Below are positions 2,482 through 63,196 of a DNA stretch of 64,000 nt, in pieces. The notes beneath the pieces are model-generated. The model had not been told where the DNA came from and ran no database searches. It was given only the letters and a program-made list of their open reading frames with translations. The stretch's first letter is position 1. Every line of letters begins with the position of its first letter. Source of the DNA: Nanobdellota archaeon (GTDB taxonomy: Archaea; Nanobdellota; Nanobdellia; Woesearchaeales; DATDXC01); contig JBDRFR010000069.1 of assembly GCA_043818675.1 (NCBI GenBank), positions 14,877 through 78,876 of the forward strand. The letters are read 5' to 3'. Position numbers and translations under genes: made by a program.

Positions 2482-2700
2482 ATGTTAACAGAAAAGGAAA
2501 TAGAAGTATTAAAACTTAGAAAAAAGGGTTTAAAGCAGACAGATATAGCCAAAAGCCTCTCGATTTCTCAGCCTGCTGTCTCTGCTTTTGAGCGCAGTAT
2601 TTCACGCAAGATAAAGTCTTCAATAAGAATCATCTATTTTCTAAAAGAGGAAAAAATCGATCCGGTAAAATATTCTAAACGAGTCAAAAATGTTTACTGA
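2482..2700 (+). CDS. Tfx-type / sigma-70 region-4-like HTH DNA-binding protein (72 aa)
   Basis: 'LTEKEIEVLKLRKKGLKQTDIAKSLSISQPAVSAFERSISRKI' matches the archaeal Tfx N-terminal HTH pattern (LTE.Q..VL.LR..GL.Q.EIA..L..S..NVS..E). It overlaps the next paralog by 11 nt. Confidence 0.5.
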   Translation: MLTEKEIEVLKLRKKGLKQTDIAKSLSISQPAVSAFERSISRKIKSSIRIIYFLKEEKIDPVKYSKRVKNVY

Positions 2701-2881
2701 TAAAGAGATACAAGTGCTAAAGCTAAGAAAAAAAGGGTTAAAACAGATAGAGATAGCAAAAGCGCTGAATATTTCCCAGCCTGCTATATCATCTTTTGAA
2801 CAAAACATTGCCCGCAAGATAAGATCTTCAGTTGAGGTATTAGGATTAGTCAAAGAGCTGGGCATTGATATTGAAAAATGA
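2690..2881 (+). CDS. Tfx-type HTH DNA-binding protein, tandem paralog (63 aa)
   Basis: 'FTDKEIQVLKLRKKGLKQIEIAKALNISQPAISSFEQNIARKI' is clearly paralogous to 2482..2700. Its stop overlaps the start of the 751-aa gene by 4 nt (ATGA), indicating an operon. Confidence 0.5.
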   Translation: MFTDKEIQVLKLRKKGLKQIEIAKALNISQPAISSFEQNIARKIRSSVEVLGLVKELGIDIEK

Positions 2882-5133
2882 ATAAACCTAGAAAACACAA
2901 AAGCGATGTAATATTTCTGCTAATTGCACTAATAGCTTTGATTGTCATAGGCCTGTATATAGGCCCTGCTTATACAGGCTATGTTACATCAGTCAAGACT
3001 TTCACTTATACAGACTCGCTTGGTATTGAAACAAACAAAAGCATTGACAGGTTATGGATCGTCAATAACGCAACTGAAATGAATTCAGTTAGTCTAAGCG
3101 GCAGTGTTTCACTAGAAGGCACTGCTAAAGTATATATTGAATCAGACAGCATATCTTATCTGATTTTTGACTCTGAACTGGTAAAAGAAACCCAGGGCTT
3201 ATCAGCTATTACAACCATTATACCTTTTGAATCAAGCAATGTAAATCTAGAGTACTGTCCTGGCTCTGTATACGATTCAGACAATGACGGTGTTGAAAAT
3301 ACAAACGCGATTATTGACTTCACAGTAAACCAAAGCGGCTTTTCACTAAATAGAAATAATCTATGCACCAGATGGTCTGTCTTAAGCTTAGACAACGGCA
3401 CAAAAACAACTGTTTGTTACGGCGACAGGCTGTGCTGCAATTTCATCGGTCTTGTTCCTTCTGCAGCATCATGGGATAATGTATTCTACCTGAATTATGG
3501 CGCATATAGTTCAACTTACAATAATATTGTAAGTGCCCAGATAATCTCTGTCGACTACAATTTAAGTTTAGATAACCCTTATACAAACATTAGTTATTCA
3601 GATTCTGAAAATTTGTCAGCATCATTTATCCCTGCCAGCGTATCTTTTAACGATATTTGCATAGAAACCTGCTCAGTGAATTTCAACGGATCTATGTATA
3701 ATCTGATTATTGAAGCAGACGGAGCCAGTATAAATCTTGATACAATAAGTTATACCTCCTTAAAAGAGATACCCAACACTGCCCCTGTCTTTGACCATAT
3801 CCCATCATTTAAGATTGATAAAGAGCTAAAGATCAATTTATCCGATTACGCGTCTGACCTGGACAACGACACATTAGATTTTATTGCCTCTCCTGCTGAT
3901 AATCTGTCAATCCGCATTTCAGGGAGTATAGCATCCATTATGCCTGATACATCGTTTATCGGCAAGAGATATATCTACTTTGTAGCAAATGATACTATTG
4001 ATATTGCAGTTTCCAACACAATTGAGATTAACGTTGGAAGGGATGTAGTTGTCAACAAGTCAGAATCAATTAAGCAAGGTGTAGCTGTTATCGGTAAGCC
4101 AGTAAGATGGGTAAAAAGCATCAAGCTTAACGATTCAGTCTATAATATCAGCGTCAACATATCTGATGATGCTATTAATTTTTCTGTTAAGAACGTAAGG
4201 TATGGCTTATCTGAGAGTATTAACTCAAGCAGCATAAAAGTCATCGATAATGGAAAAGAAAAGAACGTAACAGAATACATTAACGATAAAAAAGTAGAGA
4301 TCCTTGAAAAAAAGATCCAGAAATTAGAAGACGCAAAAAAATACAAAACCAAAAAAGAACTTACAGAGATAAACCAAAGATTAACCGACTATAAAAATGA
4401 AAAGAATAAGATAACTGGATATGCAGTCAGTCAACAATATGAAGGTATATTAACCAGGTTATATGATTGGATTTTTAATGTTGGCATAACAGGCAATGTT
4501 GTATTCGAACAAAACCAATCTTCAGCAAACAATACCCAGCTGATCATTGGCGAAGTGGTTGAAGAGTTAGAGATCGAATACTATACAGAAGGTCCGATCG
4601 CAACAGAAATCAATATTTCGCCTGATAAGAAACAGATCATTGTAAGTTCTGATATACACTATGAAAATATCCTGACTTATACCTACCTGCAGCCAGAAGC
4701 AGAAAGAAACGCATTAAAACTCTTCTGGCTTGTAAATGACACTAAAAAACAGGTTAACTTTTCAGCATTTGATACAGACTCAGACGGCTTAATTGACTAT
4801 ATACAATGGATAACGCCAAGCCTTTCTAACCAGACTTATGAATTAGAGATAACAGTATTAAACGTTCAGTCGTATCCGACAGTCGGCGGGAACTGGACTG
4901 TAGAGTTTGAAACTTCTGGCAGCGCAAATCTGACCATTAGTGCTTATTCACAAACAACATTTGCAGAAATTTATGATAATTCATCAACAGAAGATGACCT
5001 GGAATTTTTAGAAGTGAAATGTAATTCTACAATTTTGAATGCTTCTGTTGTTCTAGAAGATGGTACTGTTGTTCCATATGAAGTTTATCTGAAAATTAAA
5101 AGGATCAAAGAGATTGATGAGGTGCTTAGATGA
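2878..5133 (+). CDS. membrane-anchored surface protein (751 aa)
   Basis: N-terminal TM/signal anchor 'VIFLLIALIALIVIGLYIG'. Cys-rich N-domain 'CTRWSVLSLDNGTKTTVCYGDRLCCNFIGL...FYLNYGAYS', shared with the 1342-aa protein at 58418..62446. Cadherin-like segment 'APVFDHIPSFKIDKELKINLSDYASDLDNDTLDF'. Coiled-coil stretch. Many NxS/T sequons. Confidence 0.75.
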   Translation: MNKPRKHKSDVIFLLIALIALIVIGLYIGPAYTGYVTSVKTFTYTDSLGIETNKSIDRLWIVNNATEMNSVSLSGSVSLEGTAKVYIESDSISYLIFDSELVKETQGLSAITTIIPFESSNVNLEYCPGSVYDSDNDGVENTNAIIDFTVNQSGFSLNRNNLCTRWSVLSLDNGTKTTVCYGDRLCCNFIGLVPSAASWDNVFYLNYGAYSSTYNNIVSAQIISVDYNLSLDNPYTNISYSDSENLSASFIPASVSFNDICIETCSVNFNGSMYNLIIEADGASINLDTISYTSLKEIPNTAPVFDHIPSFKIDKELKINLSDYASDLDNDTLDFIASPADNLSIRISGSIASIMPDTSFIGKRYIYFVANDTIDIAVSNTIEINVGRDVVVNKSESIKQGVAVIGKPVRWVKSIKLNDSVYNISVNISDDAINFSVKNVRYGLSESINSSSIKVIDNGKEKNVTEYINDKKVEILEKKIQKLEDAKKYKTKKELTEINQRLTDYKNEKNKITGYAVSQQYEGILTRLYDWIFNVGITGNVVFEQNQSSANNTQLIIGEVVEELEIEYYTEGPIATEINISPDKKQIIVSSDIHYENILTYTYLQPEAERNALKLFWLVNDTKKQVNFSAFDTDSDGLIDYIQWITPSLSNQTYELEITVLNVQSYPTVGGNWTVEFETSGSANLTISAYSQTTFAEIYDNSSTEDDLEFLEVKCNSTILNASVVLEDGTVVPYEVYLKIKRIKEIDEVLR

Positions 5134-5200
5134 GGCAAATACATATAAATTACAATATACAACTTAGTATGTACATATATACAACTATAGGTGAGAGGAT

Positions 5201-5704
5201 ATGATACCCAAAGGAAAAGATGCTCTTGAAAAGGAATATAGCAGGTGTTTAAATAAAAAAACATTTGTAAAAATCAGTAATGCAAGTTATATAGATTATC
5301 TAGATGAAGCATACTTTGATTTAAATTCTGCAGAGAAGGATACAGATGAAAAATGGGCTATAACTAAAGCATATCAAGCTTTGTTTTTGACTTGTAACGC
5401 ATTATTAGTCCGAAAGCTTGGATACTATTCAAAGGATCATAGTTGCGTTATTATTTCTTTAATGAGAAATAATATTATTTCTGAAAATACCCTTGAAAAA
5501 ATTAAGGATATGCTAAATGAAAAAAGAAAATTATTTTCAGAACTGCAAAGTAAAAATAATTTATTTGATGAAATATCAAATATTAGGATTACAAGGAATA
5601 AATATCTGTACCTTCCAAAGACTCAGAGAAGGTTAAAGAGTTCTGTAAAAGGAATAATTGAGGAAGTAAAGGAATTGATCAAAATTCTGGGTGATATAGA
5701 ATGA
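5201..5704 (+). CDS. hypothetical alpha-helical protein, possible HEPN-like partner of the downstream nucleotidyltransferase (tentative)
   Basis: 167-aa ORF whose stop overlaps the start of the MNT gene (ATGA at 5701..5704), a typical TA-pair arrangement. No canonical Rx4-6H motif was found, so the HEPN call is weak. Confidence 0.3.
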   Translation: MIPKGKDALEKEYSRCLNKKTFVKISNASYIDYLDEAYFDLNSAEKDTDEKWAITKAYQALFLTCNALLVRKLGYYSKDHSCVIISLMRNNIISENTLEKIKDMLNEKRKLFSELQSKNNLFDEISNIRITRNKYLYLPKTQRRLKSSVKGIIEEVKELIKILGDIE

Positions 5705-6303
5705 TCAGTGAAATACTGCCGCTTACCAAAAATAAACTTGAGATTTTTAAATATATTTACGAGAAAAAAGGGTCTCATCTTTTGGATATATCAAAAAATC
5801 TAAAAATACACCCTTATAGTGTTCAAAAGACCTTAAAGTCTATTAAGAAATTGTTTGTCGAGAAAAAAGCAGGAAGGACAATTATTTTGTCACTTGATAA
5901 GAACCTTCCAGGTTATTTTGAACTTCTTTATCTAATTGAGGACTATAAGCTTACAATTGATAGTAAAGATTTGAAAATACTGATAAGAAATCTGAAAGAA
6001 TTCTTCTCCAAAGATAAAAATGTGCTAAGTTGTGTTTTGTTTGGGTCATTTGCGCGGAATGTTTCTGGTGAAGATATTGATTTACTATTTTTGGTTAAGA
6101 AGAGATCAGATTATGTTATTGAAAAATGTTCCCAGCTTTCAACATTATTTGGAAAAGAAGTATCTCCTTTAGTCATGTTAGAAAAGGAGTTCAAGTCTGC
6201 TTTACAAAGTAAAGAGCCAACTATTATATCGATATTGGAGCCTTCTCAGCGGCTTTTGGTTGTCGGAAAAGAATACTTTTTGAGGTTTAGTTATGATGGA
6301 TAA
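5701..6303 (+). CDS. winged-HTH + minimal nucleotidyltransferase (MNT, Pol-beta superfamily) protein
   Basis: 'VLFGSFARNVSGEDIDLLFLV' gives the GS...DxD nucleotidyltransferase signature. N-terminal HTH-like region 'LEIFKYIYEKKGSHLLDISKNLKIHPYSVQKTL'. Confidence 0.65.
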   Translation: MISEILPLTKNKLEIFKYIYEKKGSHLLDISKNLKIHPYSVQKTLKSIKKLFVEKKAGRTIILSLDKNLPGYFELLYLIEDYKLTIDSKDLKILIRNLKEFFSKDKNVLSCVLFGSFARNVSGEDIDLLFLVKKRSDYVIEKCSQLSTLFGKEVSPLVMLEKEFKSALQSKEPTIISILEPSQRLLVVGKEYFLRFSYDG

Positions 6304-7225
6304 GATAAACTGTAAATGTTGTGCAGGCGAAAATATTGTAAAGAGAGGATTAAGAAGGTTAAAAAAGAGTACTAAGCAGGTTTATTTCTGCAAAGATTGT
6401 AATCATAGATTCTCCTTAGGGCTAAGTAAGAAAAAATTTGATATTAAGGTAATTTTGACTGCAGTTTCTGCTTATGCTCAAGGATATAACTATTCTGAAG
6501 TTTATGACTTGATATCAAGAAAAAGTAAAGTTATTGTTTCAAAAAGTTCTGTTGAGAGGTGGGTCAAAGAGTTTGATCTGGGTTATTTTGCTATTAGAGA
6601 GAGGATTGTTAAAAAGTATGGTTCAGATTTATTTATCCAAAAGATGTTTAAGCATTCTGGTTTAGTTTATAATTTCAAATTTCATAAAGGAAAATTAAAT
6701 GAGTTTGGCAAATTTGATGGGCTGAAAAAGTTTATTGTTTCTGTTGGGAAAGGAATTGATGATAAATTGTTTAATTCTTCTGCCAATAGATGTTCTCAGA
6801 CTAAAACAGATGTTTCTGTTGATGTTAAGGTTTATGTGAGTAAATTGAATAAAGTTGTTGGAGATGCTTTAAAAGTTGTTAGAAGTAATAAACAAAGGCA
6901 TTCTGTTGTTGAAAAGCTGATGCTGCATTGTGATAGAGATACTGTTGCAGTTGAAGTTCCTGTTTGGTACTGGGATAAGAAAAAAAATATTTCTGTTTGT
7001 GGACATATTGATATTTTACAGGTTAAGTTTGGGAAGGTTTGGATTTTTGATTATAAGCCAAATGCTGGATCTGAGAATTATGATTCTGTTGTTTCGCAGT
7101 TGTTTAATTATGCTCTTGGAATTTCGTTTAGGTCAGGTGTTAAGTTATCGGAAATCAAATGCGGTTGGTTTGATGAAGTTAAGATGTACGTTTTTGATTC
7201 AGATAAGGTGAGGATTCATGGTTAA
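6293..7225 (+). CDS. zinc-ribbon / HTH / PD-(D/E)xK nuclease-like protein
   Basis: N-terminal 'CKCC...CKDCNH' zinc ribbon. Central HTH-like segment 'VIVSKSSVERWVKEF' resembling a transposase N-terminus. C-terminal 'GHIDILQV...WIFDYKP' is compatible with a D...(D/E)xK restriction-endonuclease-fold motif. Overlaps the MNT gene by 11 nt. Confidence 0.45.
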   Translation: MMDKINCKCCAGENIVKRGLRRLKKSTKQVYFCKDCNHRFSLGLSKKKFDIKVILTAVSAYAQGYNYSEVYDLISRKSKVIVSKSSVERWVKEFDLGYFAIRERIVKKYGSDLFIQKMFKHSGLVYNFKFHKGKLNEFGKFDGLKKFIVSVGKGIDDKLFNSSANRCSQTKTDVSVDVKVYVSKLNKVVGDALKVVRSNKQRHSVVEKLMLHCDRDTVAVEVPVWYWDKKKNISVCGHIDILQVKFGKVWIFDYKPNAGSENYDSVVSQLFNYALGISFRSGVKLSEIKCGWFDEVKMYVFDSDKVRIHG

Positions 7226-7535
7226 GGAAATTAAAATGAGTAGTAGGCCCGTCTATCCTACTGACCGTATCAAAGGCACGGGGTTCGTCAGGACCTGTTC
7301 CTCAATGAGTAATAAGATTATGGGGCATATAAAATTTTTGGAAAAAATGGATGGATTTAATGTAAACTGTTTAAAGAAAATTATGCCACGATTCTGGGAA
7401 AAAAATGTCTCTATGATGGGAACTAAAATAGGTCTCGATATTGGGAAAAGTTTTGGATTTTTTGAATTGGTTTTAGAGTTTATTAAGGTTGGATTAAGTT
7501 TATTTTGCATAAAAGAGGTTGATTATGGCTGCTAG
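7218..7535 (+). CDS. hypothetical small protein (105 aa) overlapping the start of the giant gene
   Basis: ORF with a GGTGAGG Shine-Dalgarno-like motif upstream. No motifs. It overlaps the giant ORF start by 17 nt. Confidence 0.2.
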   Translation: MVKEIKMSSRPVYPTDRIKGTGFVRTCSSMSNKIMGHIKFLEKMDGFNVNCLKKIMPRFWEKNVSMMGTKIGLDIGKSFGFFELVLEFIKVGLSLFCIKEVDYGC

Positions 7536-10500
7536 TTGGTTGAATAAAGCAGGGAAAAGTAAGGTTTTGGTAGCTTTAGCTTTGTTTTGCTTACTGTTAG
7601 GGATGTTTGGCGTAGGGTTATATAATGTAGGAGCCAGTCAAGACGAACTACTAATTGAAAGAGAGAACTTGATTAATGAGTTAGGGAATTATTCATATTT
7701 ACTAAACACATCACTTAAGATTGATCATATATTTGTTGAGAATTATTCTTGTTCTTCAGTTGGATATCATACTGTTAAGGTTTTGACAGAAGGAGTGCAT
7801 GATCAATTATTTAAGTTTGGTGATGTTAATGCGTCAGCGCATAATCTGGCAACGTATTCATCCAGTATAACCAATAACACGATAATATGGTATCATTTCA
7901 ATAATGATTCTTCTGTATATGAGAATTATGGAACTGAAGAGTTAACTGCAGAAGATAGTATGGTTTTATTATTCCACTTTAACAATGATTCTAGTGTTGG
8001 TGAGAATGATACGCATGTTTATGATTTTTCAGGGAATGGGAATAATGGAACTGTGACAGGTGCTGTTTATAATTCTAGTGGGAAGTTGAATGGAGCGTTT
8101 GAGTTTGATGGTGATGGGGATTATGTTGGAACAAATTTTAATACAGATATCCAGAACTTTACTGTTTCTGTTTGGGCTAAAAGTCTGTCTGCTCCAACAA
8201 CAGGGGGTGTATATACAGCGGTTCTAGGAAGGGAGGAGAATTTTATTATTTACTGGGATGCTACAAGTGGCACATTTGATGCTACTGTTGCTTATAGGAA
8301 TTCAGCGGTTGGATGGACAGCTTCTGATTTTGGTCCTGTAAGTGCGAATGTATGGTATCATATTGTTGGGACTTACAATGGAACTACTTTGATTACTTAT
8401 AGAGATGGTGTTGAAATAGACACTTCTACATTTGGAGTTCCTCAGAGTACTTCTGATATGTTAGCAATAGGGGATTCTAGGGTTGGAGCAGGAAATTATT
8501 TCAACGGCTCAATAGACGAAGTAGCAATCTGGAACAGAAGCTTATCCGCAGCAGAAATAAAAGGCATTTACATGAGAGGGCTACCTGCACATGTTTATGA
8601 TTACTCACAATATAATAATCATATAAAAGCCAACAAAACTGATCCGTTTGAGCCAACCTTTACAGCAGCAGGTAAATATAATGGAGCGTTGGAGTTCTCA
8701 AAAGATGATTATCTAATTAAGGACAATTTCACATTAGTCGGCGGAAACGGAACAATATCATTCTGGTTCAAGCTCAAAAATAATTATGATTCAGCCAAAG
8801 ATAAACATATGATACCTTGGGAATACAGGGAAGATGATACCCCAAATAAAATGGTCATCAGGTTTGACGCAGGGACTGGCCAGTTAAGGCTTATAACATA
8901 TCCAGGTTCAGATGTACTGACAGATTCAGATGCAACTTCTTGGACAGCAGGTGTCTGGCATCATGTTGCATGGGTACATAACACTACCCATACTGTGATG
9001 TATGTAGATAATGTGTTACAGTCTGATGTTGACACAGCAACAGTTTGGTGGAATGACTTTGCAACAGAAAATAGTACGCTGTATATTGGAGCCGAATATT
9101 ATAGTGGAAAAATACAAAGTTACTTCAACGGAACAATAGACGAATTTATGTTATTTAACAGAAGCTTATCAGCAGCTGAAATATCAGACCTTTATGGTGG
9201 AAAAGCAATAACAGGATTGACTATATGGGATGATTCTGATAACAAGAAAGTATACGCAAATTACACTAAATTCTATGCAGACTATAATGACTCAAGCGCT
9301 AAGACAGCCATATACGGCGGCGGAAGATGGTGCGAGTTTGCGTTTAATAAGACAAACCTAGACTGGAGCATATATACCTACATCAATATGACCTTTAACC
9401 CCAACACATTAAGATATGAATTGATAGCCGATGGCGGTTATTTCAATAACCAGACAGAAAAACACATAGATGGTATGCCAGCTGGACAGTATTATTATAA
9501 TATATCCTGCTATGATGAGACTGGAGTTTATCAGAATGTTTCAGTTGTTGATTTTGTTAATGTTTCTGAATATGATACAGGTTTAGGTATTACGACAAGT
9601 GTTACTGCGCCTGATGTTAACCAAAATGTTATTTTTTATGCAAACTATTCAAGAAATGATGTTTGGGATGTTGATAATTGGGTTTACGGTAATGAGATTG
9701 GGAGGGTTGTGTGGAATAGTAGTTCTATAGGTAATGAAAGATATTATGATGCTATCCCGGCAGTGTTTGTTGATTTTGACAACGATGGTAAAAAAGATGA
9801 ATTTGTTATCTCTGATGGTAACTCAGGGACAATATATCCTTTTTATTCAAACGGTTCACAAATGGAATGGACAAACACACAACAAGGATATGACTCTGCA
9901 GAAATATCTGTTGGAGATTTGGATAGGGATGGTTATGAAAATGAGATAGCAGTTGGAGATTGGCTGAGCGGAACAAGTGATGTGATAATAATTAATGAGA
10001 CAGGTGCAACAGTCTGGTCAGCTGTGAGTAATGGACAGCCAATATATGCTATTGAAATTGATGATTTAGAAAATGACGGATCTCCAGAAGTTGTATTCGC
10101 TAAGACTACAGTCTTAAGCGTCTATAATATGACTGGCTCAGAAATTTGGAATTATACTCTGCCAAATTATGCTTTGGAAATAAGAATGGCGGATGTTGTG
10201 GGGAATGAAAATAAAGAGATTATTGTAGCTACTGCTTATGGGGATAAATTGATGGTATTTAATTCCTCCGGTACTAATTTATGGAACTATACTAATGGAA
10301 ATGATCCGATTTCGATTGCATTCGCAGATATTGACCATGATGGTGTTGATAACATTATTACAGGGATGAGGACCGGAAACCAAGTATATGCAATGAATGG
10401 TTCAGGATCTATGCTTTGGGGAGGGAGTAGTCTTAGCGGAGTTGCCGGACAGATAAATGAGCTTGCCACTATGGATTTGGATGGGGATGGGTATGAAGAT

Positions 10501-13500
10501 GACATTGTGGTCGGAGACCAAGCTGCTGTTAAAGGATATGATAACGATTCAACCAATCTATGGAATTTTAATTTACCCTCGGATGATATATCCTCAATCT
10601 CCGTAGGAGACATCGATAGCGATGGTGATAAGGAGATTATTGCAGGGGGCCTTACAGACGGTACAGTATGGGTACTTAATAGAACTGGCAGCTTAGAATT
10701 TAGCTATAAAATTGGAACCGGCCATATTGGAAATACCTTCTATGCAAGCTCTCCATCAACTGATATTTCTGATGTTAATAATGATGGAATAAATGATATA
10801 GGTGTTGGTATCTATCTAACTAGTGATGATAGTTATGGATATATCTTCCAGGACGTCTCCTGCACAATAAAATTCAACGATTCTGCAACTATTTATAACA
10901 TGACATGGGATTACGTTACTGACAAATGGAATTACTCAAGAACGTTTTCGAATAATGTTGTCTATGCATATAATGTAACCTGCAGTAAAGGTGGCTATGT
11001 AACTCAAATCCAGGAATCAACAGTTGATTTAACACAGACCTTAATAATATGGGACGACTCTAACTCAAAAGTAACATATGCAAATTACACCAAATTTTAT
11101 GCAAATTACACCAAATCAAACGGAACCCCATTGACAGGCAGCGGTGAATGGTGCGAGTTTGCATTCAATAAAACAGGCCTTAACTGGAGCTTTTATACCG
11201 CCTATAACATGAGCTATAATCCAACTACAAAATTATACGAGATAATTGCTGATGGCGGCTATATTAAAAATAACACAGAATCGCATATTGGCGGGATGCC
11301 TGTTGGCAATTATAGCTTTAATATTTCCTGCTATGGCGGCAAAAACTTAACAGCAACAGACACAGTAAATGTTGCTAAGTATGATACAGGTTTATCTTTA
11401 ACACAGTCAAATGTTCATGCTGATATTAACACAGATGTTGAGTTCTTTGCTAATTACACAAGAGATACTGTATGGAATGTGGACAACTGGTTCAGAGATT
11501 CAGGAGAAATTGGCAGAGTTATATGGAATAGCAGTGATGTTGGAAACAGTCTTGTTGCACTAAGACCAGCTGACTTATCTAATGACGGATATCTGTCTGA
11601 TATAGTTACAGTAAATGACTACAAGATTATTGCACACTATCAAAACGGATCAGTAAGGTGGACTTTTTCAACTGGAGTTATCCAACAGGCAGGATCCTTA
11701 AACATTGTCAATCTGGATAACGACGGATTTAAAGATGATATAATTACAAAATTCTCTTATAACATATTTGTCCTTAATAAGACTGGTGATCAACTAAACA
11801 AAACAACTGTTGCAGACGGCGGTTGGGGAATTGGAGTTGCTGGTGATGCAAATAATGACGGAATAGAAGATGAGTTAGTAGTATCAGGCGTAAATTCTAA
11901 TCCGGCAATATTATACAATATATCTAACAGCGGACTTTCTGTTGTTAAACAATGGAATTTTTCAGTACCAGATGATATGAGGGAAGTAATATTCGGAGAT
12001 TTTGACTCAGACGGTTTGGATGATGATTTTGCAATTAGTGGAGTTGATTCAGGAAAAGGAACTTATGTTTATAAATGGAACGGGACAAATTTATTTAATG
12101 TAACTTATGGTGGACTTGCTATTGCCAAAGCTGATATTGACCATGATGGTTTTGAAGATGATATAGTGATTGCAGAAAACGGCAATTATCTTGTTTATTC
12201 TTTTAATGGAAGCTATAATACAAAATACACAAGCACAGATGAAGCAATGGTATACAATACAGATCCAATATCAGTATCCGCAGAGATGATTGTACTGGAT
12301 TTGGATTCAGACGGATTTAATGATGACATCATACTGGGAGATAGAGGCGGAGCAGCTGGACCTGGAATTGTCTGGGCATTTGACAACAATAGTATTGGAT
12401 TGTGGAATATCACATTACCTGCAAACGGAGATGATGATTACATCTATTCCATGGTCGTTGATGATTTTAATAACGATGGTAAACAAGAATTGATCTTTTC
12501 CAGTGAAGAGTTTGATAAAGTTTATGTTGCCAATCTGTCAGGATATGTACTTTGGGACCAGATCATTGGACAAGGAGATATCTCAGTGATTAAAGGAAAA
12601 TCTCCTGGCATCATAAGTATTGACATAAATAAAGATGGAATTTCTGATTTTGCGACCGCTTCCGCAAATGGTTTTGTCCATGTTCTGCAGGACGTATCCT
12701 GCACAATCCAATATGAATCAGAAGGTGGAGAGATTAACAGGACTGGTCAGAATTGGGAAAATGGTTTAGTTGCTCTATATCATTTTAATAATGAGTCTGC
12801 ATATGGCGAAACAACTGTTGGAGTTAATAATGTAACGTATGACTTTGCACCAGGTCACTGTTATGATAACGAAACAGAAATACTAACTAATGAAGGCTGG
12901 AAATTATTTTCAAAATTAAATAAAACTGAGCAAGTAGCAACATTAAATCAGGAAACAAAAGAATTGGAATGGCAGCATCCAATGGAATATCAAGAGTTTG
13001 ATTATGACAATGATATGTATAAGATTATATTGGAGGATGGATCAGATTTACTTGTTTCAGAAAAACATAGGGTTTATGGAAAATCAGTAAGCATCATCGT
13101 GATGAGTGAAATCTTCAAAGATGATCTTATTTTCTCTGACCTGGAAAGTCAGGACAAAATGCCCCACATGAACTCTTTTGAGATGGCTCAAATCCCCTTT
13201 GAGGTTCTTAAGGTGATTGATGGTGACAATATCCATTTCAGAAATTTGGATAATTTTTCTACTCAAAGCTTTGAAGAGAACAGGGTCTTTTCTCTTAATC
13301 TTGATCAGAGCCTTATCAATCTTGGAAATGTCAATATTCATAATTCATCCAGCCACTTTTTTAGTTCTTCGGGAGTCATTGCCTTGCCTTTAGCTGGGTC
13401 TTTAGATATTTTCTTTAACTTTTCTATGAACTCAGGCTTCATAGGAAATTCATCTAATGGATGCCAGTCAATAGATTCACAAAACTGCTCATCTTCCCTA

Positions 13501-16500
13501 GTTAGTTTCCTTGATACACGAAATTCTTCAAATATTCTTCGCTTGTTCAATTCCTCTCTAGCTGCTTCAGACCAGTTTATCCATGGAAATGCTTCAATTC
13601 TTGCCTTAAAGGATTTGTCTACAGGATATATTATACTAGCCATTTATAATTCACCCCTTGCCCTTAATTTTTCTAATGCTTCTAATTTCTTAAGCACACC
13701 CTGTTTTGCAACTTCAGACCAATTAATGTCAGGATGCTTGTCTAACTTTGCCTTAAAATCATCAGGTACTGATATAGTAAACCTTTCCATTTTTGATGCC
13801 TCCTGGATGATACAAGATAATAAAATTTTGGGTTCATCCAACAATTGTATTACTAAACACAATTGTGTTTATAAATCTTTTGATAATTTCAAGTTGATGC
13901 CTATAACTGATGCGTATGGGCTAATCAATTCAGGAAAACAGGTTTATTTCCTGGATGGTTTTAATAATGAGGTTAAAGTTAAGTCGATTGTTAAAGAAAA
14001 GTACAATGGCAGAATATATGATGTCGATGTAAAAAATGATGTTGTTTTGGTAAGAAGGATTGATAGGAATAATCGCACAAATAATTATGATAAAAAAGCC
14101 ACGCAAGCAGGAAAAAATTCATGCCACAATTCTGGGAAATATTGTTATGATAAAAGGACTAAGGAAAACTTCTTTTCTGAAAATGAGGATGGTTTGGGTA
14201 TATTGAGTGAGAGGGGTTATGAAACTAATTATTATGGTATATGGTCTGGGAATAGCAATAACGGAACTATTTATGGTGCTACAGTTGATATGACTGGTGG
14301 GAAGTGGAATGGGAGTTTGGAGTTTGATGGGGCGGGGGATTATGTTGATGCTGGAGATACATTTGATATGGGAACAAATGATCTGTCATTATCTGTATGG
14401 TTTAAAACATCTGATAGTGGTTCAAAAATTAAAACAATTATTTCAAAATCTTATGCATGGGATACAGGTGCATATAATTTGATTATTACTGCTGGTAATA
14501 ATCTAAGACTTCATGCTGAGAATAATACTGGTCAGGGTGAAGTAGATATAATAAGTCCTCTAACTTATACTGATGGACAATGGCATCATGCAGTAGGTAT
14601 TTTTGATAGAGATAAAAATGCAATATTATATGTTGATGGATCTGAAGTTGGTTCAACAACAATGGCAAATATTCTTAATCAGGATCTGGATACTACCTAT
14701 TCATTTAGAATTGGAATGTCACATTGGAATAGTTGGCCCAGACCTTTCAACGGCTCAATAGACGAAGTTGCAATTTGGAACAGAAGTCTTTCTGAATCTG
14801 AAGTCTGGGACTTGTACATGTCGTCAGCACCAAAATATAACATGACATGGGACTATACAAGAAAGAAATGGAACCATACAAAACAGTTCACTTCATACGG
14901 TAATTATACTTACGGAATAACATGCGAAAAAGGCGGCTACACAACCCAAAGAAGCTCAAGTTATGTTGATCTAACCCAATCATTAACAATATGGGATGAT
15001 TCTGATTCAAAAACAGCCTATGCAAATTACACCAAATTTTATGCAAATTACATAAGATCAAACGGAACAGCAATGAACGGAAACTATTGGTGCGAGTTTA
15101 AGTTCAATAAGACAGGCAGATGGACAAAACCAGTCAATATGAGCTTTAATCCAGTAAGCTTACAATATGAAATAATTGCTGATGGCGGATATATTCAGAA
15201 TTCAACTGAAACGCATATTGACGGGATGCCTACTGGAAATTACAGTTACAATATCTCCTGTTATGGTGGTGAATATAAATCACTAACAGATACTGTAAAT
15301 ATAGCAAAATATGATACTGCACTTGCTTTAACCCAAACAAACATCCATCCAAATACCTATTCAGATGTTGAGTTCTTTGCTAATTACACAAGGGCTACTG
15401 TATGGGATGTAGACAACTGGTGGTGGGATACAACTGAGATTGGGAGGGTGGTTTGGAATACAAGTGCTCTTGGAGGGAGTTCACATACTGTTGATTTCTT
15501 TGATTGTTTGAATAGTGGAAAGAAAAATTGCCTTGCGACCACAGAATATTCTGATATCTGGATGTTTTATCCAAATGGAACACAGATTACAGCATCTGGA
15601 ACTGCCTCAAATCCAGGAGGAGATTTATTAGATGCTAATGTTTTTGACGGAGATGGAGATGGTTATGAAAATGAGGTTCTTATTGTTGGAGATAATAATC
15701 AGGTTTTAGTTGTTAACGAGACAAGAAATACTGTGTATACCTATACTGCTGGAGGAGATATTTTTTCTGTTGTTGGAGCTGATTTAGATAACGATGGAGT
15801 CAAAGATGATTTTGTTATTGGTGCTTATACTGGGTCTGTTTATCAGGTCATGGCATTTAATACTTCTGATGGAGTTAATTGGGTGAATTTTTGGAACGGA
15901 ACTGTTGGAGGAGTTATTCAGGAAATGGTTATTGGTGACTTTGATAGAGATGGAAGGGAGATTGATGTTGCTGCTACAGGGACTTCGAATGGAAATGTTA
16001 CTGTTTTTGTTGGGGATAATGGAACATTGATATTTAGTACTGTTGACCTTGGGGCATTATCTTCACTTACAGTGTCTGATTTGAATCATGATAATTACAA
16101 TGATGAGATAATCGTGGGGGAGACGGGTGCCACTAGGGTTCTTGCGTTTAGGTGGAATGGGACATGGGGAGCAGAAATGCAAGATACAGACAATGATACT
16201 AATGGTTGGCTTTGGTCAAACACTCTTCCAACATACAGTATTACTGAAATTGATACTTTTGATGCAGATTTAGATGGTTACAAAGATGAGATTATTTTTG
16301 AAGATGGAGGCAGTTCATCAAACTCAAAAATTTGGGCAGTGGATGAAGAGGGCAACTACTTGTGGAATTTTACATGGGGGAACACAATTGATGTTTCATA
16401 TAGTCTTAATGTTGCTGATGTGAATAACGATGGAAAGGATGAGATAATTTTTGGACCTAGGAATGCTGCTACATTGTATGTTTTGAATATCTCTGGAGAT

Positions 16501-19500
16501 TTATTGTGGAGTTATCCTCTTAATCAGGGTTGGATTGGTAATGCTTATGGAACTTCTCCAGGGATAGATATTTCAGATTTGAATAATGATGGTATAAATG
16601 ATATTGTAGTTTCAACTAATACTGTGGGTTATAAATATATTTTCCAAGACGCTAAATGCTCAATCCAATACGAATCAGAAGGCGGGGAGATTAACAGAAC
16701 AGGTCAGAATTGGGAAAATGGTTTAGTTGCTTTATTTCATTTTAATAATGAAAGTGCATATGGCGAAAACAGCAGCTATATTTATGATTTCTCAGGTAAT
16801 GATAACAATGGAAGTTGTACAGGTACAACATGCCCAACCTTTGATACAACTAGTGGAAAGTGGAATGGTAGTTTTGAGTTTGATGGCGTGGATGATTATG
16901 TTGCAATGTCTCAGGATGATAGTCTAAATTTTTCAGGAGATAGTGAGATTACCATTTCCTTTTGGGCTAAACTTGTATCAGCAGATAATAGGCATGCTGT
17001 TATTGGGGCGTGGGATGGTGAGTCTGGTTCTACTTCTGCTTATCTCTATATGGACAATTCTGGAGCTAATGGAATTATTATCAAGAATACAATAGGAGGT
17101 GATACTGGAATTAGAACATCAAGCACATCTTTTAATTTAAACACTTGGTACCACATAGTTTATACTTTTAATGGTGTCTTAGAGACAGTCTATCAAGATG
17201 GCACTCAAATTGATACAAATGATATAAGTGGAACCATGCGTAATAATGGTGAGACAGGTCCTTGGGTAGGTCATGCAATGAATGATGGAACAACTCCAGT
17301 ATATTTCAACGGCTCAATCGATGAAATCGCAATCTGGAACAGATCATTATCCGCATCAGAAGTTTGGGATTTGTATATGTCATCAGCACCAAAATATAAC
17401 ATGACATGGGACTATACAAGAAAGAAATGGAACCATACAAAACAGTTCACTTCATACGGTAATTATACTTACGGAATAACTTGCGAGAAAGGCGGATATA
17501 CAACTCAAAGAAGCTCAAGCTATGTTGATCTGACTCAGTCATTAACTATATGGGATGATTCCGATTCAAAAACAGTCTACGCAAATTACACCAAATTTTA
17601 TGCAAATTACAAAAGATCAAACGGAACCGCATTGAACGGTAATTATTGGTGCGAGTTTAAGTTCAATAAAACAGGTATATGGACAAAACCAATCAACATG
17701 AGCTTTAATCCGGTTTCCCTACAGTATGAGGTAATAGCAGATGGTGGATATATCCAAAACTCAACTGAATATCACATTGACGGTATGCCAAACGGTTATT
17801 ATGGGTATAATATAACATGTTACGGTGGTGATTATAAATCATTAACAGATATGGTCAATGTTTCTTTATATAATACAACTTTGGGAGTCAGCAGGAATAA
17901 TCTTGCGCCAGAGGTGAACGTTGTTACAACATTTTATGCAAACTATACAAGAAATGATGTATGGGATGTTGATAACTGGAAATTGGGACATGAGATTGGG
18001 AGGGTTGTTTGGAATACTAGTTGTCCAACATGCGGCAGTGTTTCTGCTATACCTGAATTTGTAGACTTCAATGAAGACGGTAAGAAAAGTGAATTATTCA
18101 TTCTTGCTGATGGTTTCCCTTATGCTATTTCAAGTAATGGTTCTAAGATCTGGACAAGTTCAACAGAGAGATATGTTCCTAGCCAAGCAGTAGCTTTTGA
18201 TGGAAATGGAGATGGATATGATAATTATGTTGTTGCAGTTGAGGATGTAAATTCTGGTTCAGGTATACGTGTGTATAACAGTACAGGGAATATCATTTGG
18301 GAATGCGGCTTTCCCGGAGACTTTATGTCTGTTGTTGCAACTGACTTAGATAATGATGGAAAGAAAGATGATTTTGTTGTAATTGATACATATACTCCTG
18401 TGGGTAATGTTTCCGCATATACTACTACTAACGGGCAAACATGGGTGATTAATTGGAGCCATATATTTCCAGCGACTAATACCGCAGATGGATCTATTAA
18501 GATAGGAGATTTAGACAACGATGGAAAAAAAGATGATTTTGCAATTGCAGGTGTGGAATATACGATTGCCCTAAATGAAACTGGAGGCGTTATATGGAAC
18601 ACAACTGACTTAGTTGATAGAGTAAATGGTGTTGGAATTGGAGATTTTGACCATGATGGTTATGAAGATGATGTGATTGTAGGGAATAGGGGATATTTAT
18701 ACATCTTCACTTTTAATGGAACTTATGGAGTTACATATACTACAAATGATGCAATTGCATCTTCTTCCTACCCTAACAGTGGAACACAATCAACTGTTAC
18801 TAGTATAGTTGTATTTGATTTGAATAATAATGGATTTAAAGATTCATTTGCTTTATCAGACATAACATATGATTCCATAGGTGTTTTTGACAACAATACT
18901 AATAATGTTTGGTTCCACAATACAAATGATTTTGGTGATGGAAGCATAGATGTAAATACTGTACGGGCAAGTGATTTTAATAATGATGGCAAAGATGAAC
19001 TGATGTTTGGTGCAGATAACGGGCTTATATATATTTTTAACAGCACAGGTTCTCTTTTGTGGAAATATGTTTTGATAGATCACGTGGGGGAGTCTTCTAG
19101 AGAGGATGCCGTTAAATCAGGCGACATCAATAATGATGGAATCTCTGATTTTGTAGCTGTCACTGTGAATTCTTACACTTACATATTCCAAGACGTATCC
19201 TGTTTCATAAGATTCAACGATTCAACATCAGTCTACAACATGACCTGGAACATAACTTTAGACAAATGGCAGTACCAAAGGACATTTCCTGACGTATCAA
19301 GATATAAATACAACATCACCTGCTCAAAAGGCGGATACATTACACAGTTTACAAACACTTCTTTTGCAACAGAAGACGGAAACCCAAGATGGAGTTCAAA
19401 TAAGACTAACCTAACAAGAAATTCACCATATTTAGCAGATGTCCATTTCAACATTACATTAAATGACATCAATCCAGCATCATACATATTCAGCTGGTAT

Positions 19501-54332: not shown

Positions 54333-54367
54333 TTCCTCCTTTTTATAATTTCAATTCATAACAAAAA

Positions 54368-62446: not shown

Positions 62447-62748
62447 TTACTAGCCTCAATCTTAAGTTGATTTTTGATCTCATTTAATTCACTGACCACT
62501 TTCTTAGTGACTTCTTTTTCACTCTTTTTTCTAATTTCATCCATGATATCCTTTCTTAATCTTGCAACCTCTGCAAGTTCTGGATACATCGATTTTAGCC
62601 AATTTTTTCTGGTAATGCTCCTAATCTTTTCACTAACGTCCATATAGTGCTCTTTTTCAGCGAGCTCTTTAAGTTTAGACAATAATGATTCAGGCATCCT
62701 TACAGAAACCAGGACATCACTCAAACAAATCACCCTTATCACAAACAC
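62443..62748 (-). CDS. small RHH/CopG-like DNA-binding protein (possible operon regulator; true start may be the internal Met)
   Basis: 'VRMPESLLSKLKELAEKEHYMDVSEKIRSITRKNW' shows a beta-strand plus two-helix RHH pattern. Its stop overlaps the start of the 1342-aa gene by 4 nt. Confidence 0.4.
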   Translation of the reverse strand: MFVIRVICLSDVLVSVRMPESLLSKLKELAEKEHYMDVSEKIRSITRKNWLKSMYPELAEVARLRKDIMDEIRKKSEKEVTKKVVSELNEIKNQLKIEASK

Positions 62749-63196
62749 TGTCTCTGGAAAATTCCCTGATAGCTTCAGCTCTGCTTTTATATACCCCTTT
62801 AGAAACCATATAATCCAGCCATTCCACTATTTCTTTTGACAATCTTATGTTAAAAATAGCCACTTTCATTTTGTATTCACAATGATATTTATTGTATGCC
62901 CCTTGTATTTTAATTAATCATTTAAATATTTTTCGGTATTATTACAAACGATTAGTTAAATTAAGAGATAATTTGTAATTGAAATAATACTTATATGTAT
63001 GTTATATGTAATTCAAATAAAGATTATATAAACCTTTTGATTTTAGATAAATTCCAACATATTAATCAAATTATTAATCAAATAAATAAATTAAGTAATT
63101 AATAAATCAGTTAATTATAATAAAAATTTTTCATATGAATATTGAAATTCATCAAATATACATAATTTTAAATATTAGATAACCCTAACAAGCTTA
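62749..63196. promoter_or_regulatory. divergent AT-rich intergenic region between the minus-strand surface-protein operon and the plus-strand genes
   Basis: About 450 nt, extremely AT-rich, with repeated 'aattaat/attaatcaaat' motifs. No ORF and no tRNA-like GC stems. Confidence 0.3.

What the first reader, a model, noticed from the sequence alone, without database searches (positions are those of the whole stretch)
2878..5133. Shared Cys-rich N-terminal domain in the two membrane proteins that flank the giant gene (751 aa and 1342 aa)
The 751-aa protein has the N-domain '...NLCTRWSVLSLDNGTKTTVCYGDRLCCNFIGLVPSAASWDNVFYLNYGAYSSTYNNIVSAQIISVDYNLSLDNPYTNISYSD'. The 1342-aa protein has '...NKLCTRWEILSVDTNKMTTVCYGNNVCCNFIGLTATKNKWNDIFYLNYGQYDASVNNKVSARVLYVDYSVSSENPYSEIYYS'.

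Five Cys positions and most hydrophobics are conserved. This is a distinct ~110-aa disulfide-type domain that I do not recognise as a named family.

Its presence at both ends of the locus is on proteins of opposite orientation. One is preceded by tandem Tfx-like HTH genes and the other by an RHH gene. This suggests a shared extracellular partner or ligand, possibly the giant protein itself.
Basis: seen in the sequence. Interest (0 to 1): 0.6.

Follow-up and report, generated by a model that had tools for sequence, protein, structure and literature searches.

The report
Head domain of archaeal giant proteins
The two proteins do share a ~135-residue extracellular domain with two inferred disulfide bonds that matches no named family; it is the conserved N-terminal 'head' of large and giant surface proteins of tiny DPANN archaea, and one carrier is the split-off front end of the neighbouring 12,098-residue giant protein.

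Summary
The shared domain is real: 49% identity over 136 aa, E=3e-39. It has four conserved Cys, not five, and spans about 135-140 aa, not 110.

It defines a large unnamed family. There are 552 cluster representatives, with no Pfam, NCBIfam or PDB match. A confident AlphaFold model (pLDDT 90) is a beta-sandwich with no close solved or viral neighbour. Records carrying it are labelled almost entirely Woesearchaeota/Nanoarchaeota.

The domain occurs once per protein, after a signal peptide or membrane anchor. It heads proteins of up to more than 7,000 aa. The only four sequences lacking a full Cys set all lose Cys1 and Cys3 together, which implies disulfides C1-C3 and C2-C4. A conserved DxDxDG-type motif suggests Ca2+ binding.

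The 751-aa protein is not a separate partner of the giant. It is collinear with the N-terminus of single-chain homologues that continue directly into the giant's residue 57. This is a split gene, interrupted by a HEPN/MNT/IS-like cassette.

The 1342-aa protein belongs to a separate conserved cassette: RHH, RHH, surface protein, membrane HerA-type ATPase. The giant's C-terminus is a paralogue of that ATPase.

The most likely role is a distal recognition or adhesion head. Function is inferred, not shown.

The parts
2482..2881 (+). Two tandem small HTH genes (72 aa at 2482..2700; 63 aa at 2690..2881) directly upstream of, and overlapping, the 751-aa gene
   Evidence: Pfam GerE E=8e-9 and 4e-9, and HTH_3
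2878..5133 (+). 751-aa 'head' protein, the split-off N-terminal part of the giant protein: N-terminal membrane anchor (aa 6-34), a ~90-aa domain, the Cys domain, then ~480 aa
   Evidence: Collinear with aa 48-790 of single-chain homologue P0084 (E=3e-247), which continues into giant aa 57 onward. Hydrophobic segment. Identical to NCBI MFH1642031.1.
3232..3654 (+). Cys-domain copy 1 (aa 119-259), with C163, C180, C186, C187 and the motif YDSDNDGVE
   Evidence: AlphaFold model of aa 115-272 has pLDDT 90.4.
5201..7225 (+). Intervening cassette between head and body: HEPN (5201..5704), MNT-type nucleotidyltransferase (5701..6303), and a 310-aa protein with a weak, below-cut-off match to an IS1/IS1595-type Zn-finger (6293..7225)
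   Evidence: Pfam HEPN, Polbeta and NTP_transf_2 above cut-off. NCBIfam IS1 transposase and IS1_IS1595_Zn matches are below cut-off (22.8 bits against 100; 21.1 against 28).
7519..43815 (+). Giant 'body' protein of 12,098 aa. It has its own 56-aa leader with a hydrophobic segment (aa 11-39); the likely start is ATG at 7525, after AGAGGT. LamG, FG-GAP, CARDB and NPCBM-associated repeats follow.
   Evidence: Giant aa 57-229 align to P0084 aa 786-979.
41908..43815 (+). C-terminal module of the giant (aa 11464-12098): juxtamembrane Ig-like part, TM segment (aa 11614-11637), cytoplasmic HerA/DUF87 ATPase. Paralogue of the 774-aa protein.
   Evidence: 44% identity over 566 aa, E=7e-164. Pfam DUF87 43.7 bits. 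TM segment.
58418..62446 (-). 1342-aa surface protein: signal peptide, Cys domain, PKD and Ig-like region, TM segment (aa 1186-1213), ~130-aa cytoplasmic tail
   Evidence: Full-length homologues P0006, P0008, P0017 and P0027.
61934..62365 (-). Cys-domain copy 2 (aa 28-171), with C75, C92, C98, C99 and the motif YDNNSDGVE
56097..58421 (-). 774-aa membrane HerA-type ATPase (signal peptide, ~225-aa ectodomain, TM segment aa 247-280, ATPase). Its start overlaps the stop of the 1342-aa gene.
   Evidence: Pfam DUF87 46.2 bits, HerA_C. HerA structures are the best PDB sequence matches. The same gene follows the 1342-type gene in six other distinct loci.
62443..62869 (-). Two small RHH-like genes (50 aa at 62717..62869; 101 aa at 62443..62748) heading the cassette
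   Evidence: Pfam RHH_1, just below cut-off. Homologues sit in the same position in L001-L003, L005, L007, L010, L013/L014 and L016.

Best explanation
The shared segment is a lineage-specific extracellular beta-sandwich domain of about 135 aa. It has so far been seen almost only in records labelled Woesearchaeota/Nanoarchaeota, which are DPANN archaea.

Structural features (inferred from sequence):
- Two disulfides, C1-C3 and C2-C4, staple a short helix (..CCNF..) onto a beta-hairpin.
- An N-terminal [YFW]-D-x-[DN]-x-[DN]-G-[IV]-E loop is of the DxDxDG calcium-binding type.

Placement: the domain is used once per protein, directly or about 100 aa after the export signal. It forms the N-terminal head of a multigene family of large and giant cell-surface proteins whose bodies vary (LamG/FG-GAP, PKD/Ig-like, CBM96-type).

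In this window it heads two systems:
(a) A giant protein whose gene has been split by a HEPN/MNT/IS-like cassette into a 751-aa head and a 12,098-aa body. The body ends in a membrane span and a cytoplasmic HerA-type ATPase.
(b) A 1342-aa C-terminally anchored protein, encoded in a conserved cassette (RHH, RHH, surface protein, membrane HerA-type ATPase).

Inferred function: these proteins are anchored by a C-terminal membrane span, and in the 1342 type the head follows a signal peptide that looks cleavable. The head is therefore most likely the membrane-distal end and acts as a Ca2+-dependent recognition or adhesion module for a conserved target on a partner (host) cell or on another head.

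Shown here: homology, family size, architecture, split-gene collinearity, cassette conservation, and the Cys pairing pattern.
Inferred: extracellular location, Ca2+ binding, distal position, and the binding function.
For: Pairwise similarity:
- 49% identity over 136 aa, E=3e-39.

Family size:
- 552 representatives at E<=1e-3 and 515 at E<=1e-10 among 1.84 billion representative proteins.

No named family:
- Pfam and NCBIfam find nothing on the domain.
- A Pfam scan of 57 members finds nothing consistent.
- A PDB sequence-profile search finds nothing even at E<=10.

Structure:
- The AlphaFold model has pLDDT 90.4 and pTM 0.82, and is all-beta with one short helix.
- Foldseek gives no hit at E<1e-3 and TM<=0.46 against PDB and BFVD. 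The best resemblances are Ig-V, FN3 and C2-type sandwiches.

Position in the protein:
- The domain occurs once per protein, with a median start at aa 149.
- 115 of 138 complete N-termini have a hydrophobic segment before it.
- The few late copies still lie 110-230 aa after a TM segment.

Disulfide pairing:
- 149 of 153 sequences have all four Cys.
- All four exceptions lose Cys1 and Cys3 together (GCTC twice, SCAC, FCGC).

Calcium-type motif:
- D43 99%, position 45 D/N 94%, position 47 D/N 99%, G48 100%, E50 93%, D57 99%.

Split gene:
- P0084 aligns to 751-aa residues 3-725 and then to giant residues 57-229 with no gap. P0102, P0040, P0140, P0020, P0135 and P0146 behave the same way.
- In the fused homologues, two conserved Cys flank the split point.

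Giant carriers:
- P0060 6837 aa, P0108 7172 aa, P0072 6010 aa and P0140 5598 aa.
- ORFs of more than 3,200 aa run off the end of L012, L020, L023, L025 and L031.

Cassette:
- RHH, RHH, 1342-type gene, ATPase is found in L001/L002, L003, L005, L007, L010 and L013/L014, and in L035, L040, L043 and L049.

Modularity of the head:
- Homologous cassettes exist whose partner protein shares only residues ~545-1342 of the 1342-aa protein and lacks the head.

Conservation:
- The head is among the best-conserved segments of both protein types.
- The 1342-type signal peptides end in small residues at positions -1 and -3 (sequences).
Against: - No experiment or structure shows binding, Ca2+ occupancy or disulfides.
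- In the 751/giant type the N-terminal hydrophobic segment lacks an obvious signal-peptidase site. It may stay as an anchor, which would place the head next to the cell's own membrane rather than at the tip.
- High conservation (about 45-50% identity across old paralogues) is unusual for host-specific adhesin tips. It fits a conserved self partner equally well.
- The link to HerA-type ATPases is not a property of the head. P0140 (5598 aa, complete) has no ATPase fused or adjacent, and many ATPase cassettes lack the head.
- The taxonomic restriction rests on record titles and on a pattern search that reaches only close relatives. Nine of the 27 genome loci are titled 'uncultured Methanosarcinales archaeon' and P0072 is labelled 'bacterium'. 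These labels were not verified.
Confidence: 0.6

Rival explanations
1. Cell-proximal anchoring or assembly module. The head stays next to the producer's own membrane or envelope, held by an uncleaved N-terminal anchor. It binds a conserved self component (S-layer, export or processing machinery, or another envelope protein) and so retains or organises the giant protein. This would be functionally analogous to the N-terminal retention modules of bacterial giant adhesins.
For: - The domain always lies close to an N-terminal hydrophobic segment, at 0-25 aa or about 75-175 aa.
- The 751-type anchor has no clear signal-peptidase motif (sequences).
- The head is one of the most conserved parts of otherwise variable proteins.
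- At least five different head-bearing proteins appear to coexist in one genome. Both points fit a common self partner.
- The giant body has hydrophobic segments at both ends.
Against: - In the 1342 type, and in giants such as P0060 and P0108, the head follows what looks like a standard cleavable signal peptide while the anchor is C-terminal. This puts the head at the free end.
- Homologous 1342-type/ATPase cassettes work without the head. It is therefore not needed for anchoring or for coupling to the ATPase.
Confidence: 0.22
2. One reading: the 751-aa and 1342-aa proteins are two independent membrane proteins bracketing one giant-protein locus, and their shared domain binds a common partner, possibly the giant protein itself.
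For: - Both carry the same domain and lie on either side of the giant gene.
- In L005 and L013/L014, a giant-type and a 1342-type head gene are adjacent and divergent.
- The giant's C-terminal module is a paralogue of the ATPase encoded next to the 1342-aa gene.
Against: - The 751-aa protein is collinear with the N-terminus of single-chain giants and is therefore part of the giant, not a partner.
- About 12 kb of unrelated genes, including housekeeping genes, separate the giant gene from the 1342 cassette.
- The 1342 cassette occurs without any nearby giant-type head gene in L001/L002, L003, L007 and L010.
Confidence: 0.08
3. The four Cys bind a metal (Zn or an Fe-S cluster), so the domain is a metal-dependent or redox module rather than a disulfide-stabilised one.
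For: Four invariant Cys in a C-x16-C-x5-CC arrangement, in organisms from largely anoxic habitats (sample sources).
Against: - All four natural variants lose exactly Cys1 and Cys3 and keep Cys2 and Cys4. This is expected for two independent disulfides and would destroy a four-ligand site.
- The domain follows export signals.
- No Pfam metal-binding family matches.
Confidence: 0.03

Closest known systems
N-terminal ligand-binding domains of C-terminally anchored adhesins (cadherin EC1; A-domains of Gram-positive MSCRAMM adhesins). From general knowledge, not tested by homology here.
   Same: A single beta-sandwich domain at the N-terminal, presumably distal, end of a long repetitive surface protein that is anchored at its C-terminus. 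An acidic Ca2+-type motif is present.
   Different: There is no detectable sequence or significant structural similarity (Foldseek TM<=0.46, E>0.02). The head has two disulfides with a vicinal CC. It is archaeal and lineage-restricted. Some carriers end in a cytoplasmic HerA-type ATPase.
DxDxDG calcium-binding loops (EF-hand-like, dockerin, thrombospondin type 3 and FG-GAP contexts). Motif class recalled from the literature.
   Same: A conserved D-x-[DN]-x-[DN]-G followed by an acidic residue. One member gives a weak EF-hand Pfam hit, E=0.03.
   Different: The motif sits in a beta-sandwich of a new family. Ca2+ binding is not demonstrated, and the spacing of the distal acidic ligands (E at +7, D at +14) is not the EF-hand pattern.
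N-terminal retention modules of bacterial giant RTX adhesins (LapA and MpIBP type). From general knowledge.
   Same: A conserved N-terminal module on giant, repeat-rich adhesin-like proteins with variable bodies.
   Different: Those are type 1 secretion substrates held in a Gram-negative outer membrane. Here the proteins have Sec-type N-terminal signals and a C-terminal membrane span in an archaeon. There is no homology.
SPEARE giant proteins of Nanohaloarchaeota (DPANN). Recalled from the literature, not read here.
   Same: Giant surface proteins of DPANN archaea that are thought to mediate host interaction.
   Different: As recalled, SPEARE proteins combine serine-protease, adhesion and restriction-endonuclease domains. 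Pfam scans of the whole giant show LamG, FG-GAP, CARDB, NPCBM-associated and DUF87 domains and none of those enzymes. Whether SPEARE proteins carry this head was not tested.
HerA/FtsK-superfamily membrane ATPases (conjugative coupling proteins, Ced-type DNA import ATPases). Relevant to the partner genes, not to the head.
   Same: The 774-aa protein and the giant's C-terminus combine a membrane span with a DUF87/HerA P-loop domain above the Pfam cut-off. They give weak matches to TrwB, TraD and CedD models.
   Different: Scores are far below the NCBIfam cut-offs (for example CedD 34.6 bits against 600). These proteins have a large N-terminal ectodomain, up to about 11,600 aa, which those families lack.

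Membership tests
Any Pfam-A or NCBIfam family (for the Cys domain) | Score at or above the family's curated cut-off | tested here: not met
   No family at E<=0.1 covers the domain in either protein. A scan of 57 family members at E<=1 gives only scattered noise: at most 5 members for any family, best E=0.0067.
Any protein of known structure (by sequence) | Profile match to a PDB chain | tested here: not met
   hmmsearch of the family profile against 177,635 PDB sequences gives 0 hits at E<=10.
Ig-like / FN3 / C2-type beta-sandwich folds | Significant structural superposition (Foldseek E<1e-3 or TM>=0.5) | tested here: inconclusive
DxDxDG calcium-binding motif class | Conserved D-x-[DN]-x-[DN]-G sequence motif | tested here: met
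   D43 99%, position 45 D/N 94%, position 47 D/N 99% and G48 100% of 153 sequences, followed by E50 93% and D57 99%.
DxDxDG calcium-binding motif class | Ca2+ coordinated by the motif | not testable with these tools
   Needs ITC, a structure with ion, or at least model coordinates, which the tool does not return.
Disulfide-stabilised extracellular domain | Even number of invariant Cys that are lost only in pairs | tested here: met
   149 of 153 sequences have all four Cys. All four exceptions lack Cys1 and Cys3 and keep Cys2 and Cys4.
Disulfide-stabilised extracellular domain | Exported: signal peptide or membrane anchor upstream | tested here: met
   115 of 138 complete N-termini have a hydrophobic segment before the domain. 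Late copies lie 110-230 aa after a TM segment. This is a hydropathy-based prediction only.
Giant-protein N-terminal region (751-aa protein as part of the giant) | Collinearity of the 751-aa ORF plus the giant ORF with single polypeptides elsewhere | tested here: met
   P0084 aligns 751-aa residues 3-725 to its aa 48-790, then giant residues 57-229 to its aa 786-979. Six further proteins show the same order. Both Cys flanking the junction are conserved in 8 of 8 alignable fused homologues.
Split intein bridging the 751-aa protein and the giant | Hint/intein blocks at the C-terminus of the head and the N-terminus of the body | tested here: not met
   No Hint or intein Pfam match in the 751-aa protein. 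The body's leader is a hydrophobic export-type segment and has no terminal His-Asn.
HerA/FtsK-superfamily ATPase (774-aa protein and giant C-terminus) | DUF87/HerA P-loop domain above the Pfam cut-off | tested here: met
   DUF87 scores 46.2 bits (cut-off 23.2) in the 774-aa protein and 43.7 bits in the giant. The Walker A sequences GSTGGGKT and GATGSGKT are visible. HerA structures are the best PDB sequence matches.
CedD, TraD or HerA equivalogs (NCBIfam) | Score at or above the equivalog cut-off | tested here: not met
   CedD 34.6 bits against 600, HerA_Thermprot 31.4 against 800, TraD 27.6 against 366.
PKD-domain surface protein (1342-aa protein) | PKD domain above the Pfam cut-off | tested here: met
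   PF00801 scores 44.1 bits (cut-off 23.5) at aa 654-731.
SPEARE giant proteins (definition recalled from memory) | Serine protease and restriction endonuclease domains within the giant protein | tested here: not met
   Pfam scans of giant aa 1-8000 and 8001-12098 list LamG, FG-GAP, CARDB, NPCBM-associated and DUF87 domains, with no protease or endonuclease.

The most novel reading that the evidence does not exclude
Head-bearing surface proteins, together with the membrane-embedded HerA/FtsK-type ATPases (fused in the giant, operon-encoded for the 1342-aa protein), would form a previously undescribed contact-dependent apparatus of Woesearchaeota/Nanoarchaeota. The Cys head would dock onto a conserved structure of the host cell. 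The ATPase would power translocation of DNA or another macromolecule across the symbiont membrane at the contact site. The split head and body of the giant would re-associate outside the cell through strand complementation and an intermolecular disulfide (751-aa C715 with giant C78).
Probability: 0.15. Interest if true: 0.85.

Novelty: new member of a known kind. Interest (0 to 1): 0.55.

Why it matters
DPANN archaea live attached to other cells, and how they recognise and hold their hosts is largely unknown, especially for the uncultured Woesearchaeota/Nanoarchaeota.

- **A marker for candidate attachment proteins.** This domain is a simple sequence marker for a whole multigene family of their largest surface proteins. 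In the source genome, at least five carriers are inferred. They total more than 26,000 residues of mostly partial ORFs.
- **A small experimental target.** The domain is about 135 aa, can be modelled confidently, and could be expressed. It could be tested for Ca2+ binding, for glycan or protein ligands, and as an antigen for localisation.
- **Annotation.** The split-gene result shows that the neighbouring 751-aa 'hypothetical protein' and the 12,098-aa ORF should be annotated as one functional unit.
- **A possible energised surface machine.** The recurring pairing of such surface proteins with membrane HerA-type ATPases points to an energised machine that has not been described in the literature I could search.

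Tried and rejected
- **Word-index protein searches** with the 2-sequence and 57-sequence domain alignments returned only 5 and 4 short fragments. The exhaustive profile search was needed.
- **The search for related loci** with the 31-sequence alignment failed because no stretch was conserved enough. The 6-sequence alignment worked but reaches only close relatives.
- **Signs of transposition.** I looked for target-site duplications or terminal inverted repeats around the 5134-7518 cassette. Only short imperfect repeats turned up, for example 17 nt at 82% identity at 5102 and 7507, so nothing is convincing.
- **Split intein.** I considered a split intein joining the 751-aa protein and the giant. 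It was rejected because there are no Hint blocks and the body's leader is a hydrophobic export segment.
- **Head binding the ATPase ectodomain.** This is made unlikely by homologous cassettes that lack the head and by head-bearing giants that lack an ATPase.
- **Recent duplication or gene conversion within this genome.** Rejected. Copies inferred to come from the same genome are 45-56% identical, and the 1342-type head is closest to 1342-type heads of other genomes.
- **Source contig look-up.** Exact-sequence look-ups of P0007, P0084 and P0060 found no contig on record.
- **Literature.** Searches for DPANN giant proteins combined with HerA/DUF87 found nothing that describes this domain or these cassettes.
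Full report
**1. Observation**

The window is a low-GC (~35%) archaeal contig. It carries aRF1 at 47045-48142 and an RFC-like AAA gene. Its main feature is a 12,098-aa ORF at 7519..43815.

The 751-aa ORF (2878..5133, +) and the 1342-aa ORF (58418..62446, -) share one strong local similarity. It covers aa 118-251 and aa 28-163, with 49% identity over 136 aa and E=3e-39. tblastn finds no third copy in the window.

Four Cys are conserved, not five. The domain is about 135-140 aa long, not about 110.

The 1342-aa gene is not adjacent to the giant gene. About 14.6 kb lie between them, including aRF1, an RFC-like ATPase, an M50 protease and a rhomboid gene.

**2. A real, unnamed family**

A profile of six domain sequences, searched exhaustively against 1.84 billion representative proteins, finds 552 proteins at E<=1e-3 and 515 at E<=1e-10.

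- Neither Pfam nor NCBIfam covers the domain.
- A Pfam scan of 57 members gives only noise.
- A profile search of PDB sequences gives nothing at E<=10.
- With a 57-sequence alignment, AlphaFold2 gives a confident model (pLDDT 90.4, pTM 0.82). It is an all-beta sandwich with one short helix that carries the CC pair.
- Foldseek against PDB and BFVD returns no hit below E=1e-3, and TM stays at or below 0.46-0.48. The nearest shapes are generic Ig-V, FN3 and C2 sandwiches.

**3. Anatomy of the domain**

I aligned 153 sequences to the profile.

- The four Cys are 97-100% conserved, in the contexts LCTRW, CYG and CCNF.
- 149 of 153 sequences have all four. The four exceptions show three different substitution patterns, and all lack Cys1 and Cys3 while keeping Cys2 and Cys4.
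- This paired loss implies disulfides C1-C3 and C2-C4. In the 751-aa protein these are C163-C186 and C180-C187. In the 1342-aa protein they are C75-C98 and C92-C99. It argues against a four-Cys metal site.
- Near the N-terminus there is a conserved [YFW]-D-x-[DN]-[ND]-[DN]-G-[IV]-E-x3-G-x-[IV]-D motif of the DxDxDG calcium-binding type.
- The domain occurs once per protein, with a median start at aa 149.
- 115 of 138 complete N-termini have a hydrophobic export segment before it. The segment lies either immediately before the domain or about 75-175 aa upstream.
- The few late copies still lie 110-230 aa after a TM segment.

**4. The 751-aa protein is the front end of the giant**

Homologues elsewhere are single polypeptides that align first to the 751-aa protein and then, without a gap, to the giant from residue ~55.

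- P0084 matches 751-aa residues 3-725 at its aa 48-790 (E=3e-247). It then matches giant residues 57-229 at its aa 786-979.
- P0102, P0040, P0140 (5598 aa), P0020, P0135 and P0146 show the same order.
- So do genome loci L004, L018, L019, L022, L023, L025, L030 and L031.

The junction is exact. The 751-aa protein reaches '...VKCNSTILN' and the giant resumes at 'NYSYLLNTS...'.

In 8 of 8 fused homologues in which both flanks align, the Cys equivalent to 751-aa C715 and the Cys equivalent to giant C78 are both conserved. Only a variable loop lies between them. The split therefore falls inside what looks like one small domain.

The 30-aa tail of the head and the 56-aa leader of the body are unique to this genome. 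The leader contains a hydrophobic export-type segment and is preceded by AGAGGT-n7-ATG.

Between the two ORFs lie a HEPN gene, an MNT nucleotidyltransferase gene, and a 310-aa protein with a weak, below-cut-off match to an IS1/IS1595-type zinc finger. I found no clear target-site duplication.

The 751-aa protein is NCBI MFH1642031.1 (locus tag ABIC04_03975, 'Nanoarchaeota archaeon' MAG). P0060 (6837 aa, ABIC04_01440), P0084 and P0103 (4514 aa) have accession numbers in the same run. From this numbering I infer that one genome holds at least five head-bearing genes. Their heads are 45-56% identical apart from one 86% pair, so they are old paralogues.

**5. The 1342-aa protein belongs to a separate conserved cassette**

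In every other locus where the neighbourhood is visible, the order is the same: a ~50-aa RHH gene, a ~95-100-aa RHH-like gene, the 1342-type gene, and a 700-790-aa protein.

- These loci are L001/L002, L003, L005, L007, L010 and L013/L014 from genomes, and L035, L040, L043 and L049 from metagenomes.
- The 700-790-aa protein has a signal peptide, an ectodomain, one membrane span and a DUF87/HerA ATPase.

In the window this ATPase is the 774-aa ORF at 56097..58421. The giant's C-terminal ~635 aa are a paralogue of it, with 44% identity over 566 aa and E=7e-164. That region includes the membrane span at aa 11614-11637 and the DUF87 domain.

In L005 and L013/L014, a giant-type head gene lies next to the cassette and diverges from it.

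**6. Reciprocal test from the ATPase side**

The ATPase family is much broader than the head, with at least 458 metagenome matches.

In the 79 best loci the upstream gene is usually homologous to residues ~545-1342 of the 1342-aa protein. Only the closest relatives carry the Cys head. Others start with a Ser/Asp-rich region, a different N-terminus, or no extension at all.

Conversely, P0140 is a complete 5598-aa head-bearing giant with no ATPase fused or adjacent.

The head is therefore a modular N-terminal unit placed on different bodies:
- LamG/FG-GAP bodies;
- PKD/Ig-like bodies;
- CBM96-type bodies in P0108.

It is not the element that couples to the ATPase.

**7. Distribution**

All 27 loci found in the species-representative genome collection are titled Woesearchaeota, Nanoarchaeota or Nanoarchaeia, or, for nine third-party MAGs, 'uncultured Methanosarcinales archaeon'. 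I could not verify that last label. Named NCBI members are Woesearchaeota or Nanoarchaeota, apart from one labelled 'bacterium'. Because the pattern search reaches only close relatives, the restriction is provisional.

**8. Mechanism**

Shown:
- a conserved, exported, single-copy N-terminal domain with a paired-Cys signature and a Ca2+-type motif;
- its use as the head of large and giant surface proteins;
- the split-gene relation;
- the cassette with a membrane HerA-type ATPase.

Inferred: the 1342 type and several giants have signal peptides that look cleavable, directly before the head, and a C-terminal membrane span. The head should therefore be the membrane-distal end. By analogy with other C-terminally anchored adhesins, it would be a recognition or adhesion module, probably Ca2+-dependent.

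The main rival is a cell-proximal anchoring or assembly role. That rival is favoured by the domain's strong conservation and by the uncleaved-looking anchor of the 751 type.

No paper in the searchable library describes this domain or these cassettes.

**9. Verdict**

I rate it as a new member of a known kind, namely extracellular beta-sandwich head domains of adhesin-like proteins. The pairing of these surface proteins with HerA-type ATPases, which I did not find described in the searched literature, gives a more novel system-level possibility.

Noticed in passing
window 12847-14244 (giant aa 1777-2242); minus-strand ORFs 13644..13862, 13338..13643, 13084..13341: A ~466-aa insertion interrupts one LamG repeat of the giant exactly between 'VTYDF' and 'SGNSNNGTIYGA' (an intact repeat reads 'VTYDFSGNGNNGTIYGA'). 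It begins 'CYDNETEIL' and gives weak Intein_splicing (E=0.003) and Hint_2 (E=0.0075) matches. Inside it, on the opposite strand, are three tandem small ORFs with weak RHH, DUF2683 and ParE-toxin matches, while the giant's frame stays open. This may be an intein-like element carrying an antisense toxin-antitoxin cassette.
   Followed up: partly
window 5201-7225: A HEPN/MNT toxin-antitoxin pair and a 310-aa protein with a weak (below cut-off) IS1/IS1595-type zinc-finger match sit exactly at the split between the giant's head and body. A HEPN-size gene and an MNT gene also lie just upstream of the head-bearing giant gene in L004. No target-site duplication was found.
   Followed up: partly
window 51786-55881 (minus strand): Downstream of the ATPase lie a 210-aa wHTH-like protein and four tandem paralogous secreted proteins of about 245-286 aa ('...AAPWGPTSIENVTTY...YYFYVELA'). 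None has a Pfam match. Homologues lie next to the cassette in L001/L002 and L007. They may be subunits of a surface structure belonging to the same system.
   Followed up: partly
window 41908-43815 and 56097-58421; loci L002 (523-5340), L043, L044, L049 and L051-L070: The same TM plus HerA-type ATPase module carries ectodomains of very different size: about 225 aa in the 774-aa protein, about 1,000 aa in a 1605-aa protein, and about 11,600 aa in the giant. ATPase proteins of 1,200-1,350 aa are common in metagenomes, and the family has at least 458 metagenome matches.
   Followed up: partly
window 60785-60850 (1342-aa protein aa 533-554): The Cys-rich motif C-L-D-G-I-K-N-G-G-E-T-G-I-D-C-G-G-Q-C-G-N-C is conserved in 1342-type homologues (P0006, P0008, P0017, P0027, L048). 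It is one of the best-conserved stretches of the protein and has no Pfam match.
   Followed up: no
window 2968-2985, 4411-4428 (751-aa protein aa 31-36, 512-517); 58925-58942 (1342-aa protein aa 1169-1174): A short motif resembling I/Y-T-G-Y/F-A/V-V/T recurs right next to hydrophobic membrane segments in the head protein, the 1342-aa protein and their homologues (sequences). It may be a processing or sorting signal.
   Followed up: no
window 43858-45770: Two Lys/Glu-rich proteins of coiled-coil-like composition (353 and 294 aa, no Pfam match) follow the giant gene. A homologue of the 353-aa protein also follows the ATPase-fusion gene in L001/L002.
   Followed up: no
loci L012, L017, L020 (about 6 kb upstream of giant-type genes): The first ~117 aa of the 751-aa protein (membrane anchor plus a small domain) also occur as stand-alone proteins of 190-316 aa, in tandem pairs.
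   Followed up: no
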